The notes beneath the pieces are model-generated. The model ran no database searches. It was given only the letters and a program-made list of their open reading frames with translations, and was not told the origin of the DNA. The position numbers and the translations under genes were made by a program. This document shows, piece after piece, positions 1-30,943 of a stretch of DNA of 64,000 nucleotides. The stretch's first letter is position 1; each line of letters opens with the position of its first letter. The stretch lies in assembly GCA_000934665.2 (NCBI GenBank), contig JYFJ02000741.1, forward strand, positions 1-64,000. The letters are read 5' to 3'. The DNA comes from Catajapyx aquilonaris (taxonomy: Eukaryota).

Positions 1-94
1 TGCCTAGACATGATGACCCCTCTACATAAAATGATGCTCTGGTGCCCCTTATGCCATTGGTACATGGCTTATGGTAGAGTTTTGATACACCCTG
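1..94. mobile_element. Right end of a putative Tc1/mariner-type DNA transposon or MITE running off the window
   Basis: Ends ...TTTGATACACCCTG followed by TA (95-96). The reverse complement TA|CAGGGTGTATC is a typical Tc1/mariner terminus. The partner TIR is not in the window. Confidence 0.4.
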
Positions 95-1580
95 TATAAT
101 TCTATTTTTGGTTATTGGTAATTCAAGTGCAAACGTAATTTACCAAAATTAACTTCATAATTGGATTGAATTAATCACTTAATAATCATGCATGCTCCCG
201 TAATTTTTCCACAATATGACACTGTATAATTTATTATTTTCTGGTTAGATACTCATATACAGTACTTAAATATTGTAGGTTCGTAGAGTTTCAAAGTGCT
301 TCAGGTATATTTTAGAAGTAGGATATGTAAATAATATTTTTTCTGATTTGTATTTCGTAACAAGCAGTTATTATAAAGTGCCGGAGACTTTTCTATGAGA
401 TCTATTACGAATCACATAGCTATTTCTCTTTTGCTAACCTTCACAGTCATGACAGCGTCTTTATTGAAATACAAAATAAATTATAAATTTTTTTTGACAT
501 CAGGTAGCTTCTTTACATGTATGCCCTGGTTGGCCAAACATTATTAGTTAATACTGTTGAAGGCAATTCAAAGGTAGCTGCTTACAATAAGCAGATTAGT
601 GGCAACCACTTCGTACATTTTAGTTGGAACACCTTGTTCATGTGAGATCAAATAGATATGGAACGTTTCTTCAAAACAATGAGTTGCCTCGGTTAGCAAA
701 GGGTATATTTTTGACCCAAAAATAATTCAGTGGGTTTTTATCTGACCTGTTCAAAAGTTAAGAAAACTGCTGATAAAATAATATAGCGTAACAAGCGATG
801 AATGCAAAATGGTATACGGGTATGTTCGATTTCGCATTATCTGGTTCGCATTACAGAGTCTGCGTTTTGCATACCAGCAGCGTAAAGTACTTTGTATCTC
901 GTATATCCAGACCTGATCCAGACTAACAAAATCGAAGAAGAAAAAACATCGATACCACAAATCCTTACAAAGGCGTAAAACCCCTCCAGATCAACTTTGC
1001 TCGACTGAACACCGTTTCCGCAACTTGCCCGTTCCAAAAGGTATTTTTGTCCCACCCACACAACCGGTACCGTATGTCCTGAAAATGCAGGTATCCATGT
1101 AGAAACCCCTTATAATTAGGAAGCGTCGCCAGTCAGGTGACAGACCAATTTAGGACCCCCTTCCTTGTTTACGTGGCGAGAAGGTGAGGATAAACCCCTC
1201 ACGAGACTGACTTGTCTCCTGTGACTGCTCGCATCTCATTTCCCACCAGTCTCTTGCTCTTTGCTGCTGCTTCTGCCTCTGGGAAAAGGGTCCTTTTCCT
1301 TGCACTCCCCCCCCCCCCCCCNCCCCAAAATCTGGTGCTCCGCATATCGATTTTCCTTTTCCGACGCCGACGACGCCATCCGACGAATGAGGCTCAGGTA
1401 AGTGCTGTACATAGAGCTGGGGGCATTTACTGATTTACAGTCAGGGTCAATTATGGGGTCGCAGTTGGTCGAAATTATGGCCGGTTGCGGGGGCAAACCA
1501 CTCGCCATTTCTCCCCCCTCAAAATTTATTGTAGTAACTGTTTCGTAATAATCTGATTGTTGTGGAAAGATGTGACTTCC

Positions 1581-2045
1581 ATGTTTGACCCCAGGCCAGT
1601 GACCCGGCTGACCCCGGCCATTATCTTATCGCTGGCATTCCTGTGCTCGGCCGAGTGCGCCGACTGGTGGGAACTTCTGGCTGCACCGACGGTTCCGACA
1701 GATGGCGGGGGCTGTCCTGGCAACCACTCCGACGACGCCATCTTCGCCGCATTTTACGAACACCAAGAGTCCGGTTCTGAGAACCAGAGGTCATTGGACT
1801 GGACTCTTCCAGGTCTCATGTTGTATCTCCTGGAAGCCAAACGACACGTCGACACCATGTCCAGACAAGCTGGAACTGACGACGATGACTTTGAAGACGA
1901 CGATGACGATTCCGATCCAAATCTGTTTTCATACTACGGCTCAGATGTGGAGTATTTGTTCCCGTTAATCTCCTTCAACATCCCATTCGACGGAGAGATA
2001 GTATTCCTGGGCTTCCGGGGATTCCGTGGTCTTATGCGGCGTTGA
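1581..2045 (+). CDS. Putative secreted acidic prepropeptide-like protein (154 aa), family unrecognised
   Basis: ATG 1581 to TGA 2045. Signal-peptide-like N-terminus (RLTPAIILSLAFLCSAECA), internal KR, Asp-rich tract and C-terminal RR. Codons are C/G-ending like the PDE8 exons. Candidate 5'UTR intron 1398-1534 (CAG|GTAAGT...TTGTAG). Confidence 0.6.
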   Translation: MFDPRPVTRLTPAIILSLAFLCSAECADWWELLAAPTVPTDGGGCPGNHSDDAIFAAFYEHQESGSENQRSLDWTLPGLMLYLLEAKRHVDTMSRQAGTDDDDFEDDDDDSDPNLFSYYGSDVEYLFPLISFNIPFDGEIVFLGFRGFRGLMRR

Positions 2046-2564
2046 CTCGCGTTAATTATGCAACGCCATGTTGATTGATTAATTATTTCGGCCCCCGCCT
2101 TGTCGATAAAACCGAACAAGGCTGGGCTTGGAATTTAACACTGCAGATACACACCAAAGTGGGTCAATCAGGACGCCTCTTATATCACGACTTGTATGTT
2201 TTTTTTTCGGTGTGGGAGTGTAATTAGACTTTTAAAAAGTCATGAAGACGGATGACTTGAGATATATTATGAGGGGGAGGTTAAAGGACATTTTTGCGGG
2301 ACTTGAAGTTTCAAGGACGATTACTCAACCTGTGACGTCTGGTCGTTCACGTGTTATGTACCTTTTGAGGGCGTTTTATCGCCCGCTTAACAATTGAAAT
2401 TGCCGATAAAAATCGGGAGTGAAGAATTGCTTTTTAACCCTGATTGAGAGGGGTAGCACAGTGGCCTAGTTGTTGAGGGTTGCACCTTCCCACATAACTT
2501 ATCCCCATTTTAATCCCCAGATTTTTGACAATTACAAGATGTGCAACAACCTGACGAATTAAAA

Positions 2565-2567
<3 letters not shown>

Positions 2568-2639
<72 letters not shown>
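2568..2639. repeat. (ATT)24 microsatellite
   Basis: 72 nt of perfect ATT units. Confidence 0.97.
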
Positions 2640-2640
<1 letters not shown>

Positions 2641-7202: not shown

Positions 7203-7210
7203 TGACGTCA
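7203..7210. promoter_or_regulatory. Full palindromic cAMP response element (CRE) upstream of PDE8 coding exon 1
   Basis: TGACGTCA about 470 nt upstream of ATG 7674, in a CpG-containing region. Confidence 0.5.
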
Positions 7211-7673
7211 CGAGTGTTTGATAACATTAGGAGCGACCTCGATGGAATGAGGATAAGGGACCGAAACCCATGCCAACTGTGCCACTCTTTTTCCTTTCCT
7301 GCCGCTGCCAGCAACCTCTTGTCCTCAAGTGACACTGATACGTCGGGGTTGCAGCCTATTGATGCTGCCGATGACCTCCTGTATATGCATCGCGCACACA
7401 GACCCACCCGATGCAGTCTTATCTGGCGAGCAGGCCAGTGCGCAGACTGTGCAATTATTTCGCAGGTCTGGAAGCGTACACCCGTCCCCAAAAAGCGCAA
7501 TTTGAGCGAGCTGGCATGATCCTGTGAGAGAGAGAAGCGGCGCAGTCTCCGTCGCGACGCCGACATGCAACAGGCCGCCGCCTTCCTTCTTCATCTTGCC
7601 TGCTGCGTCTCCTGGTCGGTATGCTGGACCGTGTGGTGAAAAGTGCACGCGAGTGACCAGTGAAAGTGACCCG

Positions 7674-7806
7674 ATGGGGTGCACTCCTAGCATACACGTC
7701 TCCGACACCGGAGTCATCTACTGCAGGGACAATCACGAGAGTCCATCCACATACTCGGCTGCCAATCATCAGGATGCACCCGGCTCACCTGAACAACCCA
7801 AGGAAG
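7674..7806 (+). CDS. PDE8: PDE8 coding exon 1 ([23 protein letters not shown]...PKE)
   Basis: Closely resembles the vertebrate PDE8B N-terminus as I recall it (MGCAPSIHVSQSGVIYCRD). Strong phase-1 donor G|GTGAGT. Confidence 0.9.
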
Positions 7807-10800
7807 GTGAGTACACAGTACTGGGAATATTATCACCTGATCGATTGGCACTATATCGATTGGACCTGGTGTCAAACTTTAGGAAAGATAAACAGCCGGG
7901 AGTTCTCACTAACATATGTGTGTACGAGCCGTGTGTAGTACATGCAGCGAGGATACTGCAAATAAATCCATAGAGACCCGCTGGCGTATGTCGATACTGT
8001 GACATATTTACTATCAGCGGCGGGGAAGTTGACATTGGGCGTGGGAGTTCCGGTCCCGAAGGATCAGTCCTAACTGGACAATGACTCAGACGGACCAGGC
8101 TCATTTTCACGTCGTGCTGGATATATATTAACACTGTACAATAAATCCTGTACACAAGTGTAAAGAACGTTTAAATGGCGCGACCTTTTCACCCAAATTG
8201 TTGATCAACACCGTTTAAAATTAATTGTCGATTCGGTCTCGAGGGCAGTCCTATCCACTGTAACGTGAACAACAAAATGCGCCTGGCATTTACACCCATC
8301 CGTTGGTAATAATTCACGAAGGTCGTTCGTTTATAAGGTCAAGCCCCTCATATTTTCGTTTTCGGTTGATGATGAACCGCTCCCTCCTGCGGGGGAAATT
8401 GATATTAGAAATTGGCAAGGGGGAGGGGGGGGGGCACTGCTCATTTCTGCGTCTGGAAATGAGGTCAGTTTGTGCGAAACCCGAAGCACCGATCGGGTTT
8501 CGGGTTATCGAAGCACTGGGGAAAAACGTGGGAAGGTCGGGGGATATGGTCTGGATTTTAAAAGGCTCCAGAGTTCCTTGTTGATCCTCTTTTCCCAACG
8601 TAAATTTAGAACATGCTTGGGGAAGATATATACTTACACTGGGAGCTGGGGTTTGTTCTTGTTATTTGCAGCTGTCAGAAACCTTCGTATTGACTCTATC
8701 TGGCTCCGAGAGAGGCGGCCCATTGTTGTGAAATTACAGGAGGTTTTGCCGGTTCATTAATGGAATTAAAGTTAACTGAACGAAGGCGGTCGGTCTTGTT
8801 CGGTTAAAGGGGCGAGTAGGTGTACCCTACATATTCAAAAGTGTGTGTCAAATATTCAGCGAGGCTTTTAACCTTTTGTTTTAACCTCGCTCTAAAATTA
8901 TGCCTTGTTAATCACCACTTAACAAGCGTTCAGGCCCCCTTGTCGACAACCTCTTATGGAAAAACCCAGTCAGCCTTAACTCGATTATGAACTTTAGGAT
9001 GCGCCTTTGTGCGGTTTTTTTTTTACTTCCATAGAGTTCTCTGGAGCCTCGTTTTTTTCATCCAAAATGGCGGCAATTGGATCGGAGGCTTGTCATTTTC
9101 CCTAATCAGCCCATCACGTCCCTCCTTGTTGCTAATTAAGCCTCAGAAGCTCCAGACCTAGAAGCCGGGCATCTAATCTTCTCACTTTTGGAGGCGAAGC
9201 AGTAATTGGGCGAAGGAAGAGAAGCCAGGATTCGACCTGACACGGTTGAATTAGCAGCTACATTCAGCAGGTTACAGGCCGCAGCCATCTTGGATCGGAA
9301 AACCTATCGATTGACGATGATTGGAAGGGCGATGCATAAATTACTCTGACGTCAATTATTGTGCGTGCTATCGTGCCTGCGTTTGGCCACTAATGATTTG
9401 ATTAGGGCCAGTTATGTTGAGAAACTAATATTGTCGCCGTTTTTGTTTGGAGGGAGGGTAATGAATGTGTCTTTTTGCTGGGGGGAAAAAAGGTCGCTGG
9501 CTTTTTGCGAATGAGGCACAAACACTCAGCTAATGGAGAATTAGCGCAAAGATATTAAGCAAAGTGATTCGTACAATGTGCCCTGGGCCAATTATTAAAA
9601 CTTCTGTTGTAGACTTGCAAATGGTAATAGATGAGGCGATGTACTGTTTAGATACTTCTTTGTTGCTTTCACTTCCGGAGGGAACAAAAATTTGCCATTA
9701 TAACGTCTCGTTAGCGAGAACAATACTCGAAGTTGGGAGCGAAATAGATGCGACTTGGATAGATGTTATGACTTTGAAAAATCACTTATAAAACAGAGTG
9801 CTTTTTGAGCAACGTGGCCTGTCCTACAAAATGTAGAAATGGCTCTGGAGTTGTTTTTAAGATTATTTTGCTTGGAAGCTATTCTCTTGAGCAGCGAATC
9901 GCCTTGTGTAGTTACCATCCTGCTGTTTTGCGTCACTGCACAAAATTGTTAAAAATGCACCCAGCACTTTCCTTACTCCTTCGCCATTCTTTTACTCTCA
10001 AGTATATTTTATGCATTCAAGGAAGTCGCCCCAAAAAATTATATAGCCAGCAAAGGACGCATCCAGCTGGCGAGCATTTCCAGTTCTCATTCTGGCCGTC
10101 AACGAGACGTCCTATGGGAAAAGAAACAGGTCGCTCCCCGAAATTTATGAAGCTCCTAACGGCTCTGTTAGTATGTTACTCTTACCACTCGCGACTACTC
10201 AGGTAGCAGTCCCCCTAATAAAAATGTGCCGCCTAGAAAAGGACCAAGATGATGATTGAGTATACACTCCGCACGCTCTAAAAGAATTCTGTTTGTTATT
10301 CTAACAGTGTGATGACATTAAGCCTGTTTTCCAGCTGTGATCTTTGGCAACGGCGCGAAATAGATCGATGGTTGAGGTGGACAGAACTGGAAGATCCTTG
10401 GGGATTCAGGCGATGGAGTTGCGGTGGCGGAGGAATTTCAGGGCTGGTGATGAACCATTTTTTTCTGGTATAACTTCATCCCTAGGGATCATGATATATT
10501 CCACCAGCAATCTTCTCAATATAGCATGACATGCATAGACTCCCGTTTCTGAGGGGGGGATACGGTTCAGGATCTTTTCTGAATTTGAGCTAAATCGAGC
10601 TCAAATCCCCCTGTGGTATCAACGCGTGGGATTCAGGGCATTGGAGCTTTACTGGAAAAGCTGTTGGGCTACTGCTTTCTGCATAATCAGGCTTCAGTTT
10701 TGCCTCGAAGATGCTTGCTAAGGATCAGACTCGAGTGTTCATATACGGCCACTCGAGACAGTGGGAAAAAAAACACAGGAAATGAATCAATCTTGGTTGT

Positions 10801-13800
10801 CAACTTAGATATTGTGCTTCCTTTGTGCTCTTAAAAATAGAGCAAAAGGTATCATCCTTCACTGCATGACATCCATCAAATTCGAATTACGTATTTCCAC
10901 CTAAGCAATGAAAAAAATTTCATTATTTTCCTGCGATTTCCGACGTACAGTTCATTTTACAGGATCGTGTTCTTGGTATATCTGCTCTCTGTTATTGAGA
11001 TTCTGCACAATACAGGTCCGCTTCCATTTCATAAACCGGTAATGGATTTTTCCTGTACCATCCTCGTGCGTCATTTTATAAACCTACACGTATATACGCA
11101 CACAAAGGAGCTTTACTGTCCGAAGAATATTTCATTCCGTCAGTCATCGCACGTTGTTAGCGCAAAGCCCTAATTATACCAAAGCGGACAGGGAGTCTCA
11201 TTACCAGCTGAAAAGGGAGAAGACCCTCTCATCCATCCTGGATCGCTGATAAACTGCTTAAAACCAGCTTTTGATTTACGTCAGCCTCATATTTTGAAGC
11301 CGAAATAGGCCATCCTAGAATATAATTCTCCGGCAGGCTGCCATGGCCCAATACGTGTTTTATTTTTGAAATGATGGCATAGAAGGAAAAAAAATCGCTG
11401 CCGTTTTATTGCCGATTCGCGGGCCAGAAAGGAGGCCGTGCACCTGGACCGATGGTGTTTGACCTTTTCCTGCACGCACTTGGCAGTAGCCGGTTTTTCC
11501 AGAAGCACACTTCCTTTCTATTTTTACACCACACGTGGGGTACATGCACTCGCCCACACGTACGCGACTCAAAAATGTGCGGAACAGCGACAACCGGCCA
11601 GTGACACACTCAACCAGTGCCCTTGACACAAGCCCGCTATTTTTATATACCGTTAGCACAATTTTAGATCACCTTCTAACACTGTATACCCAAGAAAATC
11701 GAACCCTTCAAGAGCAACAAGTGACATTGGGCACTTGTTGAATGTGCCTTAAATATTAGAGAGTTGATGTGAAGTGGCCTTATTAGTGCTGCGTACTAGT
11801 TACCACGCTATCCATTATTTTTAAAGCATTATTATTGATGTTGTAATGAATGTGTGCCTGGGACATTGCTTGTTCTGGAAGGAGAAGAATTTGCATTCGT
11901 GGTGTGGAATATGAATTTTTTTCCCCCCTGCAGGAAGCGAAGCTGTCGGGGTGGGGCTGAATGTTGACGCAGCAGTGTTAATGCGATTCCAAATTAGGGC
12001 GGAAATTAATCCTATATGCAGGAGTTGGCCGGAATATTTCCCCCAGATTTTTTACAGAGGAATTTCAAATGTAGAGCAGGTTGCTTGGAATCTCTGAATT
12101 TTGTGCCACAAATAAAATCCAAATAGCCAAAAAGGAGTTAGAATAACATTTTTCCTGCACTATTACGTGGAACTACTTTCATCGTAGTTTATACCATAGG
12201 CCTAGTTCTAACGGTTTGAAATATATGGAAAAAAAATAATGATTTACTATCATTTTTTTTCTTAGATTCTTCCCACGTAGCACATTTGATATTGTGAAAG
12301 GCACAGGATCTTGATTGATTTATTAACAGCCGATGGCGTCAAGTGTAAGGAATTGAGGGCAAGGAAACCAATTAGCGATGGTGAGTGACCTTGCAAATGG
12401 AATTATATTTTTTGCCGTACCAATCGAGTATAATTCCAACCGACGAGCCTGGCAGGCTCGAATTTTCAAAAAGAAAATGCTGGTGTGTGTAAAATCTGCG
12501 GTTAGTTGGCAAGACTTGAGGGTTTATCTCCTGGAGCGTAATGACCACTATACGGAAATGATGGGAAGCTCTCCATTCCGCTATCTGTACTCTCTCGTGG
12601 GGTTTGAACCACTCGAAACCTGGTATGGCTATACCGAGTCATGAAAGAGAATCGTTTGTGTCTGATGGGTAACCCCCAACGGTGTCGTTTTTATGCGGCC
12701 TCATCCAACCATTATGAATGCAAGTGGCGGCAGTGAAAAACCTGTGACGCATTTTTCGAATGGTTGTCAATAAATACACAGTTTGTCAATGATTGAATGG
12801 GGACATTGGAGCAGTGTTCTTTATAATTGAGTTTGTCAATGCTGCACTTTAATCGGGGTGTCAAATTGCTGATTTCAGACAGGAAAATGTTCGTTAACCT
12901 CATTTCCTTTTACATACCTGATAAAGCGTGAAACCGTAGTCGAAATGTGACATTTTGGGATTGGAATACTGTTGAGCTGCCGTTGCACACACAGCACTAT
13001 CGGATATGTGAGCGACACTCGCTGTGGAGGTCATCATTTATGCAGAGCCTGTACTCAAATCATTCGGAAACATCCGCCGGCTCTCTCTTTTTTTATCAGA
13101 GCCAGCCCACAAAATCCTCCACAACTGTTGAATATTGCAGGTAAAGCTGGTGCTGTACAGTGCCCATCTGGTTTAATTACAGTTCCCAATGCCGAAATTG
13201 TAGCCGAATACTTTTGAATGATGAAACTGTTCTTTAAAAATGTGGGACGATGAAAATCCACGTCTGTATAGAAGTAACTGCTACTTCATAATAATCGACA
13301 CTTTCCTGCGACAATGTGTCAGTTCTGAAGCAGGTCGTCAATTTCCAGGGCAGGCATTTCTGGAGGGGGGTCGCCATGTACGCCTCCGGTTACAAGTACA
13401 CTTTATTAGATCCCAGTTCATCATGCAATTTAGGCCAACAAAGGCACTTGTCTTTTGAATGGAGCCCGGTCTGCAGTCAGCGGATGTTGCATGTATAGAA
13501 GGGCGCCCCGGGGTCGTCATGTCCTCTCTCCCTTTGAAAAGCCAATGGCTGTCTTGGGACTACTTGAAGTGAGTACTGGCGCATTTGCCTTTTCCTCGTG
13601 GACAAGAAAATAGCCCGAGCCTGTCACTGACCCCAGGAGTAATTGCCACTTTGGTCTGGAGTGATTTTACACGACCGCGGAGGAATTAGATCCGCTTTTC
13701 TCGTATTCCGAAACCTTGGGTCTGGTTAGTCTTTTGAGGAATTGCATTATTCTCATCAACCTAATACCAGGAAAACAGCATTTAAAGTCAGACAGACTAC

Positions 13801-16800
13801 ATGAAAATTGTCATTCTGCATTTTTTGCGAGCTAGATCATAAAGCAGGATTTTTAAAGAGTAGTCTGCCAAGATAAACGTCCCTCAGTTTATGAAAACAG
13901 AATAATGGCCCTGTAAATGCGGCAAACCAGGCCACGAATAATATTGATACTATTAATCGCATTAATTCCATTGCACACCCAGGTTTTGCACATACCTCTA
14001 ATGACTTGGCATTAACCGCATACGGTCCATTGCACCCGAGTACTTTTAATGCACTATATTATTTTCAAACTGCAGCTGTTATTACGGGGCTTCATATATG
14101 GAATGATTTGTAACATAACAGTGCAGTGGTAAGAGTATTAGTAATCTGGTGCACCTTAAGCTGCTTTTGTCTGCAGAGAGCAACATTTTTTTGCACTGTA
14201 TTATTTAGTCTCCATAATTTAAGTACACAAGTCAGTCCCTTAACCCCGCAGTTCTTATGTCATGTTGTCCTGCCTACTGCTCCTTGTTTACAGCTTCCCA
14301 TCTGCTATAAAAACCTACGACAACATTCCAGTCAGCCGACACACCTCAGCCTTCATCCAAATGCAAGTGACCCCCGCCGTTGCCCATACGTAATAAATCT
14401 GGCCGTGCAGTACCCGGCATCCTCTCCCAAGTCCCAACATCATGAAATTCAAAGTGCTCTAAAGATGACGTCGAACATTATTCAGTCTGTGACGTAATCC
14501 TGACCTCGGTTCTTTAGAAATTTCTGACTGCCGCTGTGGGGTCACACGATACCTGATATTCAGAGTTGTTTTGTCTGGCAACCGCGTTTTGTTTGGTTAC
14601 TTGGCGCGTCACAAGCTGGTTTCAGCCCAGCCCTATAGGGTTTATTCTCCTTATGTAGACTCATTTGCATGCAGACCAGGAGTTGACTTGGCTCATGAAT
14701 TGGCGGGGAGGACCAGAAATGGTGTAACCTCATCCATCTTCCTAATAGGCGTATATAGTGCGCCGGGACCAGTACTTTTTTTCGGATTAGATGATTCAAT
14801 ATTTTGGGGCCGTGTGGGATGGAAAACGGGGGATGAATAAAACGGTTTTCACTTTTGTGCTGCAAATGGATCAGTCGTGTCCTGAATCGATTTGAACAGC
14901 GGACTGCCCACTTGTGGGTTTTAGATTGATACTGTCCAGCGGGATAGTTTAATGAAGCACGAAATTTGAGATGAAGTGGTGGAAAGGGTAAAAAATTGTT
15001 TCCATTATGAACACACTTCCACGAGGAAAATGTGTAGCTTTACAGTGTTAAGTCTTCGAATACATGATTGAGACACACTTTTACATAATGGAGTTAAATA
15101 TTACGTATGCGCAGACGATCAGATGAGGAGGTCAAGACCTGCGCATAACATTTGCACAAATAACTCCGTCTCTTCTGTTATCCAATCCTTTTGAGTCCGC
15201 TTCTGAGCATTATTTTACAGACGGATAAAACCGTGTTAAGAGCATGGCCACAGCTCTCGCAAAAGCCAAATCAGTTGTCAGCATTGGCTTGTGTCCAGAA
15301 AAAGTGTTGGCTCCCGACCTATGAATGAGAAGGATGCACACACTACTTAAGTGTAATAGATAACTTGCTCTGACGATAAGGCTTAAACGCGGCACCTAAT
15401 AGAAACGTCTGGCTTTGAAGGTTCCGACTACAAGAGCCAATAAAATTCACCTGAACACAACACTCGCGTAACATCTTGTTTCGATGAAATAATAATAAAA
15501 AATCGCAGCAGGCGTCTACTGGAACAATAGTGTGACCTCGAGACTATTTATTATACAGCGTATGTATATTTTCTTCATACATCTGTCATTCACAGCATGT
15601 AGCATACTTCCAATACTGCGCGTCGTATTTTGCGCACCGCTTTTTTATATATATTTGTTATGACCAGACGAATAATTCTTAAAGGTCACGTTTAGTGTGC
15701 GTAGTTCTTCCCAGAGGAGGTGTGGACAGTTTGGTTAATGGATGACGGTCGTGGATTGGCCGGTCGAAGGACATGCTCCCGATGCATATATTAAGCCGGC
15801 AGCGCCGTCATGAATATTGCAATTGTTCGAGTGTACTTGTGCATAGTGTACCGAGAGGTGTCTGTATACGGACAGTGCGCGTGTATGTAGCCGGAGACAT
15901 GGTGGACGTTACAGGTGGGTTCAGTGCACGAAACATTGACTAAACAATGGATTTGTGATTAATACGGAAGCAAAACAGCGTCAAAAATAACATGATGTGA
16001 TACATGTCCTCTGGAATGGACGTATCTAATGGCCTTGACGTAACAGTTGGTGCATTCATTGCGAAAATTACGTGTCAAACCGTAGCATCGAGGCATGAAA
16101 CTCGAGGAATTGATTATGTCTTCCAAAGACGTTAGCACCTTAATTCAACCGTGGAACCCCAAAAAAGAGGACAGGCAGTTCGATTGGCTTGTGGTCTCTT
16201 CCTGTTTGGTGTGTAAATCCCTAAGGACTTGGCCTTTTCTTCAGACTGACACGAAATTCGATTTTCCGGAGGTCTTGTCAGTGCGCGGCGGAGTTTGTAT
16301 TGGTCCAGGTCCTGTGTCTTGATTTCCTGAACCGGGTGTTATAAAAACATCTTAAGGCCTTTTCCTTCCAACACTCACAGTGAGTACAGTACAGCATTTC
16401 AAAGGGCTTGGATTTAGAGTAGGTCATGCAAAAGCTGCGATTTGGCATAGATATGTTATTCACACTAAAGTGTGGAAATCGCGACTGGTGGAAAAAAGAA
16501 GCTGTTGCCTCGAGGATATGGATTTAATTAGAAGTTGGAGGCCGTAATTAATATAGGCCTACGGGATATATCCGGTTGAAGGCAGATTAATCCTAAATGA
16601 TCGTACCTTTTTTGCAAGGCTGCAATTTTGGTGAGAAAGTCTTAGTCTCTTTTTTTGGCTCTTTTAGTTGGGACCTGAGACACTCTTGGCCCAGTTCGTG
16701 ACTAACAAGCTACAGCACCTCTTCCATTTTAAGCTGCCTCGTTATGCATGCTCAGAAGCTTACATGGAATAAGGAACTAATCCAATTCATGTCAAATAGA

Positions 16801-19800
16801 TTTTGGAAGTGAAGAGGCGTGATTGTCGAGTTTTTAATTTCAAGGGAGCTTTGTCGAGGTGATTATAGTGGTGTAATTTTTTGGCCGATTGTGTTGTAAG
16901 CTTGTAAGTACTAAACTTACGACATGAGCCAGTGTTTATGACTCGTTATGGATTGCATGCTTTGGGAAGTCATGCGACGCAACTCAGTTTTGTCGAATGT
17001 CTACTGCGCAGCATGGTGTATACAGTTTCCGAGCCAATGATATGCCAGAAAATATGATATGCACTGTAGTATACGATCAATGTACTCCTTAAACTATATG
17101 CGAATATATTCCACGTGTTTATATTTTAAAGTCTGATATCAAGAGGCATTTCGGCCCCCCTAATTGCATGTTGTTATAAACTCGCAGTTGCTGACAGAAC
17201 TGTTTGGCACCGAAATCATGATGTTCTGTCGAAATAATTGTTGTAGACTTTACAAACATCAGCTTAATTTTTACGGTTACTGTATACATGATGCAAACAT
17301 ATTTTTTGGTATAATTTAGCTATAAATGTAGTGTACACTTGCGAGACTGGAATGCGTGTTTTTATAGAGAGCCAAATTGAAGTACTATACCCATGCAATG
17401 CCATTTTTCAATGATTCATTCATTGAGGAGCCAATATGCACTGTAATACCTATCTCAAAGCTAACATTGCAGGAAAAGGCAAACATACTGTAAGATGTTT
17501 ACTGATGTATTCTTTATCACAGGGAAGTTGATGTTGACTGAGAATTGCACAGTAGGCTTAAAGATTGTACTGTACACTATATGTTAACATGCCAGTAGAC
17601 AGTACTGCGGTTCCAAGCCGAGTTTAGTTAAATTAATTGTCCGATATGTATGATTAAATGTTACATTCCTGTCTTATGGCGTAGAGATTTTTTTGTAAAG
17701 TCCTATTAGATTATGTTATCTGTATGTCACGGATAACAAGTGAGTGTTAGCGCCTTCCGTTACATTTTTCGAGTGTATATAATATTTTTCGCAGCTAAAT
17801 AATCACTAAAATTATTCTGACAGCGGAAAGTGCCACACATATGATAACAACTCCAGTGCTCTAGATATGACACCTTTTTGCATGATTATGTCACGGATTG
17901 ATTGATTGATTACTTTTTATGGCGCAATATCAGCACTAGCTGTAATGCGTCAAAAACAAAGTTATGCTGTGCCAGCTATGTTATGAGCTTACATTATCAT
18001 CGATGAGCGAAAGGTTAACATTGATGCAATGAGAGGAGGTAAATAAAATAAAATAAGTGGATATTTATAAAATGAAACATATGTAGAACAAAGTTTCTAG
18101 TGATTATGCCACTGATCACGTCAAACGTGACGTATAAAATGATACGGGAAGATAAATTTAATCCCCTACTTGAATTGCTCTACCCTGACTTTTGCAATAA
18201 AAATTGCACAGTCTTCTTGCCGTAACTCATAAAACCTCAGCCAAACTTCTCCACCTTGCCAAAACCCGAAATGCAAATACTGCATGCATGGCCAAAACTT
18301 TCTCCAGGCTCTTTACAGCAAAGTAAGGCTATATACACTGCTTGAAATTTGCCAAAATCCTGCTTGCTGGCCCCATAAATATGTAATAAGTGCCCTCGAA
18401 AACCGATGTCTTTTCCCCGAGCAAATATCTTATGTATTCATAGCATTAATCTCATCCATATTTTGCATTTCAGGAGCCGGGTCGTCCAGGCAAGAACCCT
18501 TGGCTCCTCAACAACTTCTGGGAAAAGGAACCTCTCGACTGCTTCCTCCAGTGAGATTTTCTGTCACTCTTCTTATTTTTGGATGCATCTTCCGGGTACA
18601 TGCGCATACTAGATCTGACGAAAATATAGAGCATGTTTCTAGCCTTGTTAGGAGTCTTACCTCTCGAGACTTCGTTAGCGCTTTTCTCTGTTGTCCAATC
18701 GTAGAACCGGAGAAGTTGCACCAGGAATAGCTCCCAGATTGGCAATTCCGCGGTCCCGACGTGAACCTTGACTAATGGTGCAGTTAACCTGTTCTTAAAG
18801 GTTTTTGGTCTAAATTTAAACGCAGCCTGGCCTGGGATTAGTCTTGGTTTTTGGAGACGCCTCGATTCATATGGCTTTAATGACAAGTGTTTAGAACTTG
18901 CCTAGCTAATTACATCCCTTGTGCTGCAGGCAACTCACTCCTAATGGTGTCTCGCATTTCATATCTGTAGTTGCTGTGAAATTATCGGTATTTTTTGGGA
19001 CTCTCAACATTTGCATATATAAAGGGTACTAAATTCTTATCTGGTGCGCTGATGGCAAGGGAAATAAAATGCAGAGTTTGTATACCGCCTCGACAAAATG
19101 TAAGCTGCCAGCCGTGGCTTTTCAGACAATCCTTATTGATGTCCGATATTGATGGGGCTGGAGAAGATTCAGGCCCGTTTCTGCTCTCATTTTGTGTGCT
19201 TAAAATGTTCGTAGCTTTAAGAGGAGGCTGTCAGAAACTTTCTGAGCGGTTCTCTCCATGATGAAAGGTAATCAAAGAAGGGCTTTTCCTTTGCCATCGA
19301 AGGTGTTCAAACACTGTGCTTTGTTTCAGCAGCCGACAGCGGAAGTGCGATTTGGTTCCATGCGTCTATCAAGACCACCTCTTAAGGTAAATTAGCATTA
19401 AAGACCCCTTCCCTTTTTATGCAACCCAGTCTATAGTTTGAACTGTGTGTAACCGCAATATTGACCTCCACTGAGAACACCCTTTGCTGCGGGTTGATGA
19501 CAGTTGGGTACAGTAAACGTCATTTTGGCAGTACCCATACCTGTGAAATAAGGGAAGACCTGTTGCTTGGCAACTATACGTTCCTTTTATAGGCTGCAGA
19601 GTTCTGTATTGACCGACGAAGAAAACTTTCTGGCCGTGATTGTATTTCAAGCCTGCTAGGAATAACAAACCATATTTTCATATGATATGCGGATGGCAGA
19701 AGTTGGAATTGGAGGGAGAAACTAAAACCGGAAGAGAGGGGGGGGGGAAGCATGCTATTTTCCAGGATGAATAATAGATAGTCTGATCCACTTTTATTGT

Positions 19801-22800
19801 TCATTGGGCAGATATAGCACAGGAAGTGCAGGCCTTCCAGGCTTTTAGCGTAATGAGGTGTACCTTACGGTTGGAGGACACTGAACAGTGTTTTGTTAGG
19901 TCCTGGGGAAATTTGCAGTTAGGTTTTTTAAACACTGTTGCGATCAAAAAGCACCGAAATGTTTGAGCAAGTTTACTGTAACGTAAATTAAACCAAACAA
20001 TAACATTGTACCACTGTTATAAGCTTATTTATAAGCTCCCACTGTACGGATTAGTGCCATGGACTTGATTTCGTGATTTTAGCATGGTTTTGTGCATGTC
20101 AATATAGAGCTAGGATTACAGGATACTTCATGTAAGCACATAAGCAGGTCAGAGCCACAATAGGAGGAACTCGCTTCATGCACGGAGTTTTAATAAAAAT
20201 ACAAATAACTGAAAACCATACTCAGTCGTTAGGCTACATTATTGGCATTTTCAGATTACTGTAGAGCAGTTGGTACTAGTACAGCCTGTGTTTACCCTCA
20301 AGCCGTGCATTCATGTGCGATGCTGTGAAATGATGCGTGACTTTAAATCGCACACGTTTAAACTCTTTACTGTGATGTCATCAAGGCTTCCCATCTGTTA
20401 TTTAATATGCCATATGTATAGAAGCCAATTCCCGGATGTCATGGTCTGTTACGCTTTGTTTACTAAAGCAACTGCAAAGCGAGTGCCACAGAAGCCCGCT
20501 AATAGCAGGTTACATTAATGCATTAATGACAGTTGCATTTGCGTCTGTGTATTATGCAACTCCAGCACACGTGAAAAAGGCCACCGAGGTAATGCCTCGT
20601 GTTTCGGTCGAGCTATAAAATAACAGATAACACTTGCCATTTAGTGTGACGATAGAAAGTCAACTTACAATGATGCGCCGTAGTTACTTTATTATACGAA
20701 TCCTCAAAACAAAAATGTGTAATATTATACACGTTGTTATAAAAATTGAATCACCTATATCAACTAACAATATTATTTCAAGTCATATCACGTGCGAAAC
20801 TGGAAACTAATGCTAGACGCGAAATACTGCTGAAACTCGCACACTGTCATAAATGCATAGCATCGCAGCCTGTAGGCTATTTCTAGACCTCCTGCTGCTA
20901 TCTCCGAGCTTTCAATAATGACGGGGGCCGCCCTTGGTCTGAGTTGATATCCACTCCAGTTAATAGCCTGCTCTGTCCCTTATCAAACTCTAACACTTTC
21001 CAATATTCTGCCCCCGACCTTCATTCATATTGAAAAACATGTTCACAGATACTCCTCGTGTTCGCCAAAGATGATGCTCAAAGCGAAGCTTTCCTGTCGG
21101 CAGCAGACAAGCTCCGATACGAATGCACCCAAGTCCGCAGCTCCGAATGCGCCCTAGAATCCTTCCAGGACAAACATCAGGATGTAATCCTCATAGACTG
21201 CAGACATTCCAAACACTTTGACGGGGAAGCCCTCTGCAGGTATATATACACAGTCAGAAGTAAGGTAGCAGACCAGAAGTTGAAATTAGCCTCCAATCTT
21301 TTTTATGGGAGGCTATATAACTTCAGCTTCAGGTCTGTTACTTGTCCAAATCCAAACTCTTAGTATTTTCCCTGTGTGTAACCGGATATTTCTGCAGGTC
21401 CATCAGGAACCTCAAGATGAGCCAACTCACCGTGATAGTAGCCGTGGTGAAAAAGAGGTGAGGCGGATGACCTCCCGGACCTTTTCCGATAATTTAAATC
21501 CTCGTCCTCTTTTGTGTACCCACAGCTTTGCAGAAAGAGAAGACGCGCCCATATTACCTCTCCTGAACGCTGGATTCGACAGGGTAAATATGAGCAAGAT
21601 TAGTTAGATGCTCTCTCCGGCACTCTCCAATGGCTTGATCCTAAGCGTATATCTCCGACATCCGGCGCTCTCTTCACGCTGAGGCCAGTGTCGCATGATT
21701 GGGCACGGGATCTAATTTTCAATCACGGGAAGGGTGATTGGAAGGGAACTTGTGTGCTGCAGTTGTAATGAACGGAACAGACAGCTGCGGCTGAAAGCGA
21801 TTGATGGTATAGGATTGTGCTGCTCAATGTCTTTCCAGATATTTTAAAACCCCAAAAACTTTCTTAGCATCTACATGGCGACATAATATATTACATGTAC
21901 CTTAAAAATATCGAGCTGTAATGCATTTTTAATTCCGTGCAGTCTGGCTGGGCTTAAGAGTTGACGAGGAATATATGGTTCTGGGCTTTCTGGGATCCAA
22001 TTATTTTTACCATCAAAGTCGGTCTGAAGGCCCCCGTGGCAAGACCTCTCCAAACCTCAATCAATTCGTAAAACCCGGCTGAATAAATAAAACGGAGCTC
22101 CCCGGAACAACGGTTGAGGAACATTAGTTCCATTTCGTCGCATGGCTTTCCGGATGAAGGGTAACGGGGCCTGAGCAGGAGAGATAAGCAGAGATGAGCA
22201 CACAATCGGAATCGAAGGATGAGGTACATCCCATGATGATGGGAGGGACAAAAAAGAAGAAGATTACACGGAAGGTCGTCAACCTGACAAATGCTTATAT
22301 AGTAACGGAGCAAACAGTATGTTCCAAGACACAACGCGTGCCAAAATTTTTGTTGCTTCTTATATCAGGCGGATATGAGGTTATGTCCGTAGGAAAGCAA
22401 TTTCCTGGAAGCATTATTACAGAAAGTATGGGATGGCAAATTGGCCGAGAGAGATGTCAAGAGAAAAGCTGTTTTTGGGGCTGAGGCCTGGAGGGCGCTT
22501 TAGCGGCGAACCCTCGTCGCCCTCGCAAATTGCATTTTGCGACCTAAAAGCAAACCGAGATGTATTTTAGTTGACACTTATTCCTCCCTCTCAGATGGAA
22601 CAATGGGTTTTTTGGTTCCTTCTGATGATTATATCTGTCTGATTCCTTCCTCCGGACAGTGCTTTGTGGAGACCGGAAACGCCAGCGTTTGTGTGAACGA
22701 ACTTCTGCAGCTGGAGCAGGGAGAAGTGCAGCTTAGATTTAAGTTAGAGGCAGCCAGTTCGCTATTCACAGCTCTAGACAACTGTCGAGATTTGGTCCAA

Positions 22801-25800
22801 ATCACCGACAGCTCACATAACATACAGGTGAGTCTCTGGTTGTTACGTTCTTATCTCTCTCTGGTCCACACTATTAAAACACTATAATGTAAAGGGTACA
22901 TGGCATGTGATGCACCATCACCTTTTGAATTGTTTTGATTTAAGATTGATTTTTAATTACATTTCAGTACGTAAATCGGTCTTGGGAGAAGCTACTTGGC
23001 TACTCTAGAGACGAAGTGATAGGCAAGAACGTCCAGGAGCTTCACCATATGAAGACAGAAGGCCTGGATACAGTAGTCCAGCAGCTGAACAAAGGCAAAG
23101 AGTGGGAAGGCATCTTCACCTGTCGGCGTCGACCCGGAGACCTTTTGCCACTTTTCTGCTGGATCGTTCCATCATTCACCACAACCAGGTTGGAAAACCC
23201 CCCCAATTTTTTCCCTCTATGTCTCTAGCTTGTCTAGATAGAAGAAAAAAAGGTGGTGGAAGGAGGGAGCTTTTAGAGAAGCTGAAACCACTTTCATTTC
23301 CTACAAAGCTCCAGCTCGAGTCGCGGGATCGCAAATCAATTCGTGTACATCAAAGAGCCGCCGCCTTTTGTGGTGGAGAAATCAACGTTGGCTGAAATGG
23401 GACAGAACGACCTGTATCCTTTGCCTCGAGGAAGTCTCCGGTCGCTAAGGAAACCGTCCTACGACATCAAGTCATTAAGCAGCGATGGTAAATCAAATTA
23501 CTTTGCTTTTTTTTGTTCACATCCTAATAAAATGAAACAGCAGAATTTATTATTCGGACTTGCAAAACTGTAATTATTTTAAGCATATTTTAATTAGTAC
23601 AGTCGTGAGTCATATAATTATCACAGAGTGCTATTGGCTGCTGTGAGGAATTCCGGCCTGCCATTGGCTTCGGTGCGTAATCCCAGCCTGCCATTGGCTG
23701 CTGTGAGGACCACAGCTATAATATGCAAGTCCGAAAGCCGCTTGTCCAACTCTTGGCGTTGAAAATACGGATAGTTATACCCCTAGGTTCGTTTTCGATC
23801 ATCCGGAGACAAAGCCTGGCCAAGATCCACTCGCTGACCATCGAGGCTCCGATCACCAAAGTGATCAACATAATATCAGCGGCCCAGGAGAACTCGCCCA
23901 TATACGTAGCCCAGGCCCTGGACAAAGTAAGACAATTTGGCGCTCACTTTTTCAGAATTTTGCGAAAGGACCGATCAGGTGGAGTTGTCATTGGCAGGTG
24001 TTGGAAATACTCCGGACGACAGAGCTCTACTCTCCGCAGTTATTCGAAGGCAAGGGCAAGTCTGAGGACCCCATGACCACAGACCTTCTTGGAGCCTTGC
24101 TCTCGGTGCGGAAAACACATTCTTCGACTAAATGTGCTCAAAGTGATGTATAATATTTTATTTATTTTTTTAAACAGCAAGGGCCTAAGCCGATCACCAC
24201 CAACAGGCGGAGCTCGAACGAGAACGCGATAAAGTCCCACCAGCCTGTGGCCCGTCCTTCCCTGCCAAACATCAACAATGCACCTATCCAGATCAGACAA
24301 TTGTTGGAGAGCGAGGCCAGCTGGGACTTTGACATCATGCAGCTGGAGGAGCTCACCGGAAAGAGGTCTCTCATCTGTTTACATCCTTTAAGAGCCAAGG
24401 GGGCAATTATATTGCCCCGTAATGAATTAGCCCAGTGTTTTCCTCCAACGTTGCGTTTATTGCTTCAGGCTCTGCTTGTAATTTAAAATGAAAAGGGTGC
24501 CCATTACACATTATTGCGCCCCAGAACACTTTTGTTGCTAATTAAAATTGACGGTGTCCGCGACACATGAGGGTGCGATACGGTAGCTTCCAAGATGGCG
24601 GCGCCCATTGAAACCGAGCACGTTTGCAGCTCCAGCAAAAATGTCCCGTTTTCTGGTAATTTTGATGGTAAATCGAGGTTTAAATGTGTCTAGAAGACAC
24701 AGAGAGGCTAGGTTCGTACATGTGGGCACAGTTTGATATGAACATCTACTTGCATGTAAAGCCCTGCTTAGACATTATTACATGGATATGCTGTTGTACT
24801 GACATTATGTGCATATTTTAGGACTTTGGTGTGGTTGGGGATGGCTACGATGGTGCGGTGTGGGGTCCCACGGGTGCTGGGATGCGACGAGACAACGCTG
24901 CAGAACTGGCTGACGTTGATCGAGGCCAACTACCACTCGTCCAACACTTACCACAACTCGACGCATGCGGCGGATGTGATGCAGGCCACGGCGTACTTCC
25001 TGGAAAAGGAGAGGCTCAAGCAAATATTGGATCCACTGGACGAGGCCTGCTGTCTCATCGCTGCTGCCGTGCACGACGTGGATCATCCGGGGAAGACCAG
25101 CGCATTCCTGGTGAATTCTGGGAACGAGCTGGCCATCCTCTACAATGACCTTAGTGTGTTGGAGTCGCATCACTCGGCCCTAAGCTTCAAGCTGACCTCC
25201 TCCGATGAGCGAGTCAACATTTTCAAAGGTGTGGCCATCTTCTTAGATCACGCAAGGCACAATTGCAAAGTACAGATTGCTAAATTGGGATCACCTGCAA
25301 GTACCACACAGCTCGTTTGCTGCACATTTGCATCGCAGAGTCTGCAGACCACGAGGTTGATTAATAGCCAGTATTTCTTGCTTCCGCAGGGTTGGATCGT
25401 GAGACACACAAGGTGGTTCGGCAAAGTATTGTGGACATGGTGCTGGCCACTGAGATGACCAAGCATTTTGAGCACTTGTCCAAGTTTGTGAATATTTGCA
25501 CCAAGACGGCACTGAGGGAAGAGGATGAAGGGGCAGGAGAAGTGAGCCACTTTGCATCGTTGAAGGTGGTGGAGGGTGCAACTAACATTCCCCATTTCCC
25601 AGGCCTTTGATCTGCTAAATCAAATTGGGTCTAGTTTTAGTATTAGTCTAGTATTAGTAAGGTTTTTAATGATAGCAAGTTATTTTGCGTATGTTTAGAA
25701 AGTTTTACTTTTTTGTTCGTTGGGTGACGTCATTAAAGTATGTGGCCCAATTTGATTTTGTAAGTTAAGGGTATCCTTGGTGTGCTTATATTTTAGAAGC

Positions 25801-28800
25801 AATTTAAAAATTTACCTGCAATGTAGTGGTGATGGATTGAATGAAATTTTGCAACTTTTCATAGTTGCATAGTGATGCACAGTGATGAAGCCAGTCACTG
25901 GTTTAAATATTTGGAGTAACAGTTAACAAGAGAAAACTTTCTGAAAAAGTTCACTCACCACTTCATTATGGGCAAATTTTTCTATTCCCTCTTCTACTTA
26001 CAATGGAGCTGTCCATCAGACCTAAAAGGAAAAGGCATCTTATACCTGAGAATTTCTTAAAGCATTTCTGGATTTTCTCAGGAGCACTCAGAACTCATTT
26101 GCAACTTTGCGAAATTAAACATGGAAATTTCAAAAGTTTGAAATTACAGTCTACTTGGCTTATATTAACTTGCTGCTTTTTTGTACTCCATTATAACTAT
26201 GACAAGTGCTTGGAACGGAACTGAATTCCCTGTGCTTTTCAGCTTTCCTAATTGTTTCTTGTATTTTGTTAACGCTTAGTGGAGTGCTGTCTAATGATTG
26301 TAAATGCATGTTGTCATATTACAATAACAGTGTCCCAAGTTGTTTTTTAAAGTCTGGTCCTTGTCCGTAAAAGATATGTGTTTATAACGTGATGGAGCAA
26401 AGTCATTGCTCTTGTGAAAGTGAATTGGCACTAAGGCTCATTACCACATTTTAATGAGTGCCTGTGGGACACTTGTATCCAGCTGTGATACGTAACAGCT
26501 TGGTTCTTTGAACATCACAGTATGGCACAACTGTATTCAGTCTCAAAACTTCATAACTTTGTAAATTAGAGGGCCAATGTTCTGTCCATTTTTATGAATC
26601 TAATTTTTTTCCTTCCATAGAGCACCAAGGACATGGTGGATGTAACACTTTTGGCAACTCCTGAAAACATCGTGCTTGTGAAACGCATGCTGATCAAGTG
26701 TGCCGATGTATCCAACCCAACCAGGCCTCTGGAGCTGTGCACAGAGTGGGCACATCGCATTGCAGAAGAGTACTGCTCTCAAGTAATTTTAGTGAAATTT
26801 TCAGAGATTTCACAATCTAACTGACCGCCTCTTGCAGACGGACGAGGAGAAGACAAAAGGGCTTCCGATAGTGATGCCAATGTTTGACAAGGCCACTTAC
26901 TCCATTGCTAAGTCGCAGATTGGTTTCGTTGACTACTTCATCAGTGATATGTTTGACGCTTGGGATGGTAAGAATGAAATGATCAAATGTTTATATTGCA
27001 GATTTGGGGCCTTTTTGTTACAACTTGTAACAATTATGGTGGTTTTGAATAGTTACCTGATAGGGGAGAGTCATTGAGTGAAAGTAAATTGATTCAAGTT
27101 CCCACAAAGAAATCATTATTAATGTTATTTCAGACCATGGGTTATGCCACTACTTGGAACACATTGTATAAGTGCATTGTTCAATACCAATGGAATTTCC
27201 CTGAGATTTAGGAAAAAATATATTCGTATGCAGGGCAACCAATATTAAGTGAAATAACTTCTTATTGGAAAATAACATTCTTCCGAAGCAAATTTATATT
27301 TAGCTACATGCTCTGGGTTTTTTTCTGGATGTATTGCATGTGGCTGCCTCCTTTTACATGGTAGGTGTACCAACGCTACGCAATCTCAAACCATACACTC
27401 TGTGGAGGATCTCATTCCATGCTTTATCCTGCATAAATGACTTCCACTTTCCCTAATATGCAACATTTCAATTATATTCATTTTTATTTCGTTGTTGCCT
27501 CACCGTAAGCAAATAATAAAGATGTTTTACGGGTAGCAGTACATACAGTGGTAGCATTTTAAAATGTTTACGTGTACTTTTTCGTTGAATTTTTTGGCCT
27601 AGCGCTACGGTACTGTTCACTACATATCTCAGGTTTTTGTTGAAATGTCCTATCAAGGGGATGGTGTCTACTCAGGGGAATCAGTAACGCTTGCGAGGCT
27701 GGAACATGGAACTAAATACTACAGCAGAGTGGCCCACACAACCTGACAGATGCGGAACAATGTTACATTTTATTGAATTGATGTCAGGTTTTTCTTTATG
27801 CAAAGTTGTGGAATTAGAAAATCCAGCATGCTGAGGTACCTGTCAGGGAGGGTTCAGATTTTAAAAAATAAGACATGAAACGATATGTTTGACAGGAAAT
27901 TTGGTACAGTTGGCATAACTCCTGAATGAGATGTGCTGGCCACATGCAACACCTTCACATAAAAACCTGGAGTATGTACAGTGCTGGACATTAATTCCGT
28001 TGTGTGGCTAGCGACATTTCCCGATGCGGCAGAAATGCCAATGGAAGTGATAGAGTGTGAGCCGTGCATGTAAGAAGTAGGGCTTGGGTGACTCAGTGAC
28101 TGGGAACAAGCTCCATTGCCCCCCAGCCATTGACGTTATCCAAGGCCTGCCATTTCTTACTCGCATGGGTCGCACTCTTATCACTTCGACTTGCACTTCT
28201 GCCGCATCGGAAAATGTCACTAGCAGTATGACGGAATTAATGTGTAGCACTGAACTGTACATAGCTGTAATAATTGTTTCAGGTGAACGTCAGTTTCTAA
28301 TCAAATGTTATTTCATTTCGTAATTGGATACTAATTTTTGCAGAAACCACAGCTTGGGATCACTGAAATAATCATACTAATCCAAAACTATCCTACAAGG
28401 TTGGAAGCCAATAGTTCACTATTGTCTGAACTAACTGTGTATTATGTCACACCATATTATCCTGGTTCTTACTTTTTAAAAACCTGTGGCATAAATGAGT
28501 TATGTAGAAAAAAAAATGCATGTGCAATGTTGGAAGTGAAAACTCGAAGCCATTGGCATCACACATTGAAGAATGACAAACTAGGATTAATGGACCATAT
28601 GTGTCGGGTGCACTTGGGATCAGTAGTACCAACATGATGTGGGAATATCAGTGGCATTTCAACTTTCACTGACTTATACAACACATAGTATATTTCAGTT
28701 GACAAGATGTCAATGGGTTCCTGTTGTACTGGATATGTTAGAATTCAGAATAATACTGTCTAATCTCTTCCATCTACTGCTGCTTGACCACTCCAGTACT

Positions 28801-30870: not shown

Positions 30871-30871
<1 letters not shown>

Positions 30872-30943
<72 letters not shown>
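30872..30943. repeat. (ATT)24 microsatellite in the probable PDE8 3'UTR
   Basis: 72 nt of perfect ATT units. Confidence 0.97.

What the first reader, a model, noticed from the sequence alone, without database searches (positions are those of the whole stretch)
1581..2045. Unrecognised secreted prohormone-like ORF upstream of PDE8
Seen: a 154-aa uninterrupted ORF with a signal-peptide-like N-terminus, an NHS sequon, a dibasic KR (EAKR|HVD), an acidic spacer (TDDDDFEDDDDDSD) and a terminal RR. There is also a plausible 5'UTR intron (1398-1534) and TATAAT at 1111. Established: signal peptide, acidic propiece and basic cleavage sites form the architecture of neuropeptide, venom and antimicrobial peptide precursors. 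Inference: a lineage-specific secreted peptide gene that annotation pipelines could miss. I do not recognise the family.
Basis: partly seen in the sequence, partly recalled or inferred. Interest (0 to 1): 0.75.

Follow-up and report, generated by a model that had tools for sequence, protein, structure and literature searches.

The report
Secreted protein with unnamed conserved tail
This is a real arthropod gene for a small, probably secreted protein whose last 40 residues are shared with uncharacterised springtail proteins and match no named family, so it is an undescribed family whose job is still open, more likely structural than a classical hormone precursor.

Summary
The ORF is real and coding. 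Its C-terminal ~40 residues (aa 113-152) match 18 proteins in an exhaustive search (E 3e-12 to 3e-5), always at their C-terminus. A profile added 7 more. All 5 hits with a named organism are springtail uncharacterised proteins (Folsomia, Allacma x3, Orchesella); 20 of 25 carry no organism. The window protein keeps 19 of the 21 positions invariant in 24 homologues. No Pfam, NCBIfam, PDB or paper match was found.

The neighbouring PDE8 places the host outside insects and outside the sampled springtails (a dipluran is my guess).

The KR, the acidic spacer and the terminal RR are not conserved, and no conserved cleavage site precedes the conserved block. The intron probably ends at 1594, not 1534, and splits the signal peptide.

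Best reading (0.45): a secreted, convertase-trimmed structural or secretion protein, with a variable linker and a conserved aromatic/glycine-rich assembly or anchoring tail. Main rival (0.3): a precursor of an unknown peptide ligand. Function is not shown. Interest 0.45.

The parts
1387..1397 (+). Probable first coding exon segment: ATG at 1387, three codons plus two bases, ending at a phase-2 donor
   Evidence: Donor at 1398 at the 99.9th percentile of window GT sites with a matrix from 14 PDE8 donors; inferred, no transcript
1398..1594 (+). Probable 197-nt intron inside the signal-peptide coding region
   Evidence: Acceptor CAG|G at 1594/1595 at the 96.5th percentile and in frame; branch-like GTGAC at 1572 with no AG between it and the acceptor. 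Acceptors 1445 (94.9th percentile) and 1535 (43rd) are also in frame but run into TGA 1554-1556
1581..2045 (+).
1581..1658 (+). Signal-peptide-like N-terminus, aa 1-26; cleavage after aa 24 or 26 by the small-residue rule (recalled)
   Evidence: Best 11-mer hydropathy 2.52 at aa 13-23; comparable stretches in the two full-length homologues tested, P0009 (2.27) and P0141 (2.85)
1659..1874 (+). N-terminal mature or pro region, aa 27-98, with the sequon (aa 48), one Cys (aa 45), a predicted helix (aa 76-95), KR (1839-1844) and a single R|Q site (aa 95/96)
   Evidence: Homology to the family's N-terminal parts was tested and not shown
1875..1916 (+). Acidic low-complexity linker, aa 99-112
   Evidence: the linker is variable in length and composition across homologues
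1917..2036 (+). Conserved C-terminal block, aa 113-152, aromatic- and glycine-rich, no Cys; defines the family
   Evidence: 19 positions invariant in 25 of 25 sequences; window 57-76% identical to the others over 37 columns
2037..2042 (+). Terminal RR, not preceded by Gly
   Evidence: 12 of 24 homologues end in 1-3 basic residues, 12 of 24 in none
1111..1249 (+). Possible TATA element (1111) and possible upstream 5'UTR intron 1184-1249; weak
   Evidence: Donor 1184 at the 99.8th percentile, acceptor 1250 at the 80th; TATAAT is common in the window
7674..30566 (+). Neighbouring PDE8 gene; context, host placement and possible conserved linkage

Best explanation
The gene encodes a small secreted pro-protein of an undescribed family of wingless hexapods. 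Shown: it is coding, and its C-terminal ~40 residues are under strong constraint. Inferred: a signal peptide takes it into the secretory pathway; convertases may trim it at basic sites in the variable N-terminal half; and the remaining piece, a low-complexity linker carrying the conserved aromatic/glycine-rich tail, is deposited in an extracellular material (cuticle, egg envelope or a glandular secretion such as the spermatophore). There the tail would act as a self-assembly or anchoring module and the linker would set charge, length and glycosylation.
For: Homology is confined to aa ~105-152 and lies at the C-terminus of all 18 hits. At least three paralogues exist in Allacma fusca. Linkers differ widely: D/E 3-35% and S/T/P 23-65% in the 40 residues before the block of the 24 homologues. 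No shared cleavage site borders the block: nearest KR/RR 45-97 residues away or absent. No amidation signal is present except possibly in 1 of 24. The block has 10 aromatic residues and 5 Gly in 38 residues and no Cys. Furin-type RxKR sites lie in the N-terminal half of 3 of the 4 long homologues checked. The layout of signal peptide, variable low-complexity region, short conserved block and paralogue expansion is that of arthropod cuticular protein families (own knowledge).
Against: There are no expression, localisation or biochemical data at all. 21 of 37 columns invariant across 24 homologues is as typical of a receptor ligand as of a structural motif. 12 of 24 homologues and the window protein end in basic residues that a carboxypeptidase could trim, and 9 of 24 have KK or RK within 7 residues of the block. 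No known chitin-binding or cuticle domain was found. Only 2 of 24 homologues were examined for a signal peptide; most others look like N-terminal fragments.
Confidence: 0.45

Rival explanations
1. Precursor of an unknown peptide hormone or neuropeptide-like ligand: signal peptide, fast-evolving propeptide and a conserved C-terminal mature peptide, released by an atypical cleavage and trimmed of its basic tail.
For: Extreme conservation limited to the C-terminal block. Optional K/R/RR/KR tails in 12 of 24 homologues and in the window protein. KK or RK within 7 residues of the block in 9 of 24. An RQ pair upstream of the block in 7 of 24 against 2.7 in shuffles (p 0.007, post hoc, sequences not independent), and also in the window protein with Arg at P8.
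Against: No site is shared at the N-terminal border of the block: 15 of 24 homologues and the window protein lack a nearby dibasic pair. No amidation and no Cys; the block is very hydrophobic. By name and recalled motifs it resembles none of the precursor families listed in PMC4770511; that paper's sequence supplements could not be read.
Confidence: 0.3
2. Membrane-active defence, antimicrobial or venom peptide precursor, with the acidic tract masking a cationic amphipathic C-terminus.
For: In the window protein aa 144-154 has a helical hydrophobic moment of 0.84 and four Arg, and an acidic tract lies upstream.
Against: The whole block is net 0 in the window protein and -3 to 0 in the 24 homologues. 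R146 is His in 23 of 24. The acidic tract is not conserved. Strong conservation over deep time is unlike such peptides (own knowledge).
Confidence: 0.1
3. The conserved block is a membrane- or lipid-binding tail (re-entrant or peripheral) that keeps the protein at the cell surface or carries surface lipids.
For: aa 126-144 is the most hydrophobic 19-mer after the signal peptide (1.32); a low-confidence model shows three short helices.
Against: 1.32 is below a typical transmembrane value, and the stretch holds two Pro, an Asp and a Glu. GPI signals are not sequence-conserved (own knowledge). The model's pLDDT is only 59.
Confidence: 0.1
4. Not a functional gene: a chance ORF or a decaying pseudogene in the PDE8 upstream region.
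For: The window copy is the most divergent member (57-76% identity against 68-100% among the others) and changes two otherwise invariant residues (G121, T141). No transcript was seen.
Against: The frame is open, 19 of 21 invariant positions are kept, codon usage is PDE8-like, and signal peptide and splice signals look intact.
Confidence: 0.05

Closest known systems
Springtail uncharacterised proteins: Folsomia candida LOC110845759 (P0009), three Allacma fusca proteins (P0016, P0019, P0145), one Orchesella dallaii protein (P0008)
   Same: Same C-terminal ~40-residue block at the very end, after a low-complexity linker; P0009 has a signal-peptide-like start.
   Different: The long springtail members have an N-terminal module with RxKR sites and two Cys; no significant similarity of that module to the window protein was found. 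The window protein is shorter and the most divergent in the block.
Arthropod single-copy neuropeptide or peptide-hormone precursors (for example PDF, NPF, AST-CC, NPLP1 type)
   Same: Signal peptide, variable pro-region, conserved C-terminal segment, optional basic tail.
   Different: No conserved convertase site at the start of the conserved segment, no amidation or Cys motif, and no match to any Pfam peptide family.
Low-complexity cuticular and eggshell protein families with a short conserved block (CPF/CPFL, CPLCG, Tweedle, chorion and vitelline-membrane proteins; recalled)
   Same: Secreted, multi-paralogue, variable low-complexity body with one short conserved aromatic/Gly-rich block.
   Different: No Pfam match to any of these; the resemblance is architectural only.
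Antimicrobial or venom peptide precursors with an acidic propiece
   Same: In this one protein, an acidic tract precedes an Arg-rich amphipathic end.
   Different: The family's block is neutral to acidic, highly conserved, and has no cleavage site after the acidic tract.

Membership tests
Unnamed springtail family (LOC110845759-like) | Conserved C-terminal block with the motifs GGDIEY, IPFDGEI and GFHGFKG | tested here: met
   E 2.7e-12 best; 19 of 21 invariant positions kept
Unnamed springtail family (LOC110845759-like) | N-terminal module with RxKR sites and two Cys, as in P0009, P0141 and P0019 | tested here: not met
   No significant score against shuffles; profile and hhalign negative
Neuropeptide / prohormone precursor | N-terminal signal peptide | tested here: met
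   By hydropathy only; SignalP was not available
Neuropeptide / prohormone precursor | Conserved mono- or dibasic cleavage site bordering the conserved peptide | tested here: not met
   KR/RR 45-97 residues away in 13 of 24, none in 11 of 24; KK or RK within 7 residues in only 9 of 24 and not in the window protein
Neuropeptide / prohormone precursor | Amidation signal or conserved Cys pattern | tested here: not met
   A Gly-Lys end in 1 of 24; no Cys in the block. Not all neuropeptides need either.
Neuropeptide / prohormone precursor | Sequence match to a described hexapod precursor | tested here: inconclusive
   No Pfam match; the precursor sequences in the .doc supplements of PMC4770511 could not be read
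Neuropeptide / prohormone precursor | Neuronal or endocrine expression, processed peptide, receptor | not testable with these tools
   Needs RNA-seq, peptidomics and receptor assays
Antimicrobial / venom peptide precursor | Cationic mature peptide after a conserved acidic propiece | tested here: not met
   Net charge of the block -3 to 0; acidity of the linker not conserved
Named cuticular / eggshell protein families | Family domain (Rebers-Riddiford, Tweedle, chorion, VM and similar) | tested here: not met
   No Pfam family for the window protein or the block; only composition-driven hits to linkers
Named cuticular / eggshell protein families | Presence in cuticle or egg proteome; moult- or oogenesis-timed expression | not testable with these tools
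   No expression data available
Any solved fold | Structural match of the conserved block | tested here: inconclusive
   Model pLDDT 59; searches with it are uninformative

The most novel reading that the evidence does not exclude
The conserved 40-residue tail is an ancient secreted peptide ligand, or a dedicated assembly module, of wingless hexapods. It is kept almost unchanged between springtails and a second non-insect lineage, still linked to PDE8, and lost or unrecognisably changed in insects. It would be a molecular marker of a trait given up on the way to insects, such as stalked spermatophores or moulting as adults.
Probability: 0.25. Interest if true: 0.75.

Novelty: new variant of a known kind. 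Interest (0 to 1): 0.45.

Why it matters
Short, nearly invariant domains with no Pfam model are uncommon in animals. This one is seen by name only in springtails plus the window's host, which the PDE8 trees place outside both insects and the sampled springtails. If the absence from insects holds up, it is a gene family lost near the origin of insects. It can be tested directly in Folsomia candida (LOC110845759), a standard laboratory animal. A ligand would add a signalling system missed by homology-based neuropeptide surveys; a structural protein would add a component of cuticle or reproductive secretions. It also corrects the gene model, since the start codon is probably in a tiny upstream exon.

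Tried and rejected
Searches that found nothing:
- Word-indexed protein search with the whole ORF: 0 of 21 candidates at E<=1.
- Pfam: 0 families for the ORF; only composition hits among 19 members; RecR_C at E 0.2 in 7 of 12 block sequences, judged chance. NCBIfam 0 of 12.
- PDB by sequence: nothing below E 0.6.
- ESM Atlas: no usable hit for the ORF; only sub-0.8 leads to unnamed clusters for P0009.
- Rfam on 1-9000: 0. Phage tblastn: 0. No second copy of the block in the window.
- Prokaryotic genomes: 1 of 116 pattern matches passed, but it scores E 5.6 at database scale and covers only half the block. Rejected as chance, so there is no sign of horizontal transfer.

Structure:
- AlphaFold2 gave low confidence for the whole protein (pLDDT 53.5) and for the block (59.3). 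My guess of a beta-meander was not supported; the model is helical but unreliable.
- Foldseek found 0 matches; VIA best Z 4.1.
- The homotrimer prediction gave no answer, score 0.00, alignment not used; it is not evidence either way.

Ideas dropped:
- Collinear N-terminal motifs that I thought I saw between the window protein and P0019/P0009/P0016 failed shuffle tests, a profile search and hhalign. One local hit to P0017 (5 of 500 and 3 of 400 shuffles) does not survive testing about 20 sequences.
- The bacterial promoter scan is irrelevant to this host.

Literature: 0 papers hold three block motifs or the LOC id. Topic searches gave nothing on this family (listings only, except the three papers named in the full report). 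Cluster membership and accessions of the unnamed homologues could not be obtained.

Full report
Observation. The ORF 1581-2045(+) is as described: 154 aa with a hydrophobic stretch at aa 13-23, a sequon at aa 48, KR at aa 87-88, an acidic tract at aa 99-112 and a terminal RR. Length alone is modest evidence: 3 such ATG-ORFs in the window against 0.25 in shuffles. With synonymous codon usage trained on 13 PDE8 exons it ranks 2 of 103 long stop-free frames, behind a PDE8 exon, and its GC3 is 0.61 against 0.65 for PDE8. It holds the best-scoring segment outside PDE8. TATAAT at 1111 is present but common (129 TATAAW against 107 expected).

Gene model. An ATG at 1387 lies 11 bases before the strong donor at 1398 (99.9th percentile). 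Of the 13 AG sites scored between 1398 and 1720, the best is 1594/1595 (96.5th percentile). It joins ATG 1387 in frame to the ORF, giving 153 aa with a more basic signal-peptide n-region (+3 against +1). Another in-frame site, 1445 (94.9th), also ends at that stop. True PDE8 acceptors score from -0.3 to 9.1 in leave-one-out, and 1535 scores -1.0, so the matrix cannot exclude it. The case for 1595 is the combination of score, frame, a branch-like site at 1572 and an intact product. This is inference; no transcript was seen.

Family. Word-indexed search, Pfam and the Atlas found nothing. Exhaustive phmmer against 1.84 billion representatives found 18 proteins (E 2.7e-12 to 2.5e-5). All match within query aa 94-152 and all match at their own C-terminus. 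A profile of the block returned 24 proteins, 7 of them new, for 25 homologues in all. One (P0146) has only half the block and was left out of the counts. Five of 25 carry an organism, all springtails: Folsomia candida LOC110845759, Allacma fusca (three) and Orchesella dallaii. Among 24 homologues, 21 of 37 columns are invariant, and the window protein keeps 19 of them. It is the most divergent member, 57-76% identical against 68-100% among the others. Its N-terminal half shows no demonstrable homology to theirs. No named insect or crustacean protein appeared. However, 20 of 25 hits have no organism, one search scored only 8000 candidates of 84 aa or more, and the exhaustive search used one sequence, so absence from insects is likely but not proven.

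Host and context. The downstream gene is PDE8. In three trees it falls outside insects, decapods, cladocerans, myriapods and chelicerates, and outside the long-stemmed clade of Orchesella and P0086. It is either weakly sister to that clade (FastTree 0.86-0.88) or unresolved next to it (IQ-TREE). CpG depletion deepens along the PDE8 gene to 0.31 at 28-32 kb while GpC stays near 1. That pattern suggests gene-body methylation; PMC5915941 (passages seen) reports springtails lacking DNMT1 and DNMT3, and methylation signs in one of two diplurans. A dipluran or similar non-insect lineage is my guess, not a result. The ORF itself is not CpG-depleted (1.04). The Folsomia member lies on a 28.5-Mb contig, while P0086 (species name cut off, grouping with Orchesella) lies on a 6.5-Mb one, which would speak against universal linkage if P0086 is from Folsomia.

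The nearest KR/RR upstream of the block is 45-97 residues away in 13 of 24 homologues and absent in 11, many of which are fragments. KK or RK lies within 7 residues in 9 of 24, but not in the window protein. The preceding 40 residues are 3-35% acidic and 23-65% S/T/P. Twelve of 24 end in one to three basic residues and 12 in none; one ends Gly-Lys. The block's net charge is -3 to 0. RxKR sites occur in the N-terminal half of 3 of 4 long homologues checked. An RQ pair occurs upstream in 7 of 24 against 2.7 expected, a post hoc count on related sequences. So processing in the secretory pathway is plausible, but precise release of the conserved block is not supported.

Mechanism. Shown: coding status, a constrained C-terminal block, variable linkers and paralogues. 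Inferred: secretion, trimming and function. I favour (0.45) an extracellular structural or secretion protein whose aromatic/glycine-rich tail (10 aromatic residues and 5 Gly of 38) drives assembly or anchoring. The basis is that a paralogue family with freely varying low-complexity linkers and no fixed cleavage site looks like cuticular and eggshell protein families (own knowledge). The rival (0.3) is a precursor of an unknown ligand, favoured by the extreme conservation, the terminal position and the optional basic tails. A defence or venom peptide (0.1), a membrane or lipid anchor (0.1) and a pseudogene (0.05) are less likely. Structure prediction did not help: both models are low-confidence.

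Literature. No paper in the library holds three motifs of the block or the LOC id. For PMC4770511 I saw the abstract, outline, the first half of Results and one readable supplement with no motif hit. Its two .doc supplements, which hold the precursor sequences, could not be read, so an overlap with that data set is not excluded; the survey searched only for known families. For PMC6938034 I saw passages only, used for background on dipluran genomes. Other papers were seen as search listings only. Most subscription journals are outside the library.

Verdict. A real gene, a corrected gene model and an undescribed conserved domain, so far named only in springtails and now seen in a probably different lineage. 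The classical prohormone reading is not supported by the family, though a peptide-ligand role stays open. Novelty: new variant of a known kind (a secreted pro-protein with an unnamed domain). Interest 0.45.

Noticed in passing
window 7674-30566 (+): PDE8 gene: first coding exon begins with an MGC-type N-terminus most like Strigamia (65% over 37 aa); 13 exons joined without a stop from 21049 to 26967; last exon near 30483-30566. A phase mismatch implies at least one unlocated exon between 7806 and 21049.
   Followed up: partly
window 24000-36000: CpG observed/expected falls to 0.31 at 28-32 kb while GpC stays about 1.1, suggesting gene-body methylation rising toward the 3' end of PDE8.
   Followed up: partly
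window 35292-35350, 35989-36015, 41951-42021: Related inverted repeats, 79-93% complementary, starting TACAGTGAAACC; they look like ends of a small DNA transposon or MITE (label recalled).
   Followed up: no
window 27976-28052 and 28179-28255: 77-nt inverted repeat, 82% complementary, 126 nt apart, in the last PDE8 intron.
   Followed up: no
window 2566-2639 and 30872-30943: Perfect (TTA)n microsatellites of about 24 units, one about 520 nt after the ORF's stop and one just after PDE8.
   Followed up: no
window 23629-23709: 30-nt tandem repeat, 2.7 copies, in a PDE8 intron.
   Followed up: no
window 1322: The window's only N lies in a poly-C run in the putative 5'UTR of the gene.
   Followed up: no
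protein P0146: The conserved block breaks off half-way into unrelated sequence, as expected if that species has an intron inside the block; the window's block is uninterrupted.
   Followed up: no
proteins P0009, P0141, P0019, P0016: These long members share a second, Trp-rich N-terminal module with furin-type sites and conserved Cys (E down to 7e-38 between them), also without a Pfam name.
   Followed up: partly
window 31000-64000: No convincing coding segment by codon score; the best is 41520-41741 on the minus strand, score 18, not examined.
   Followed up: no
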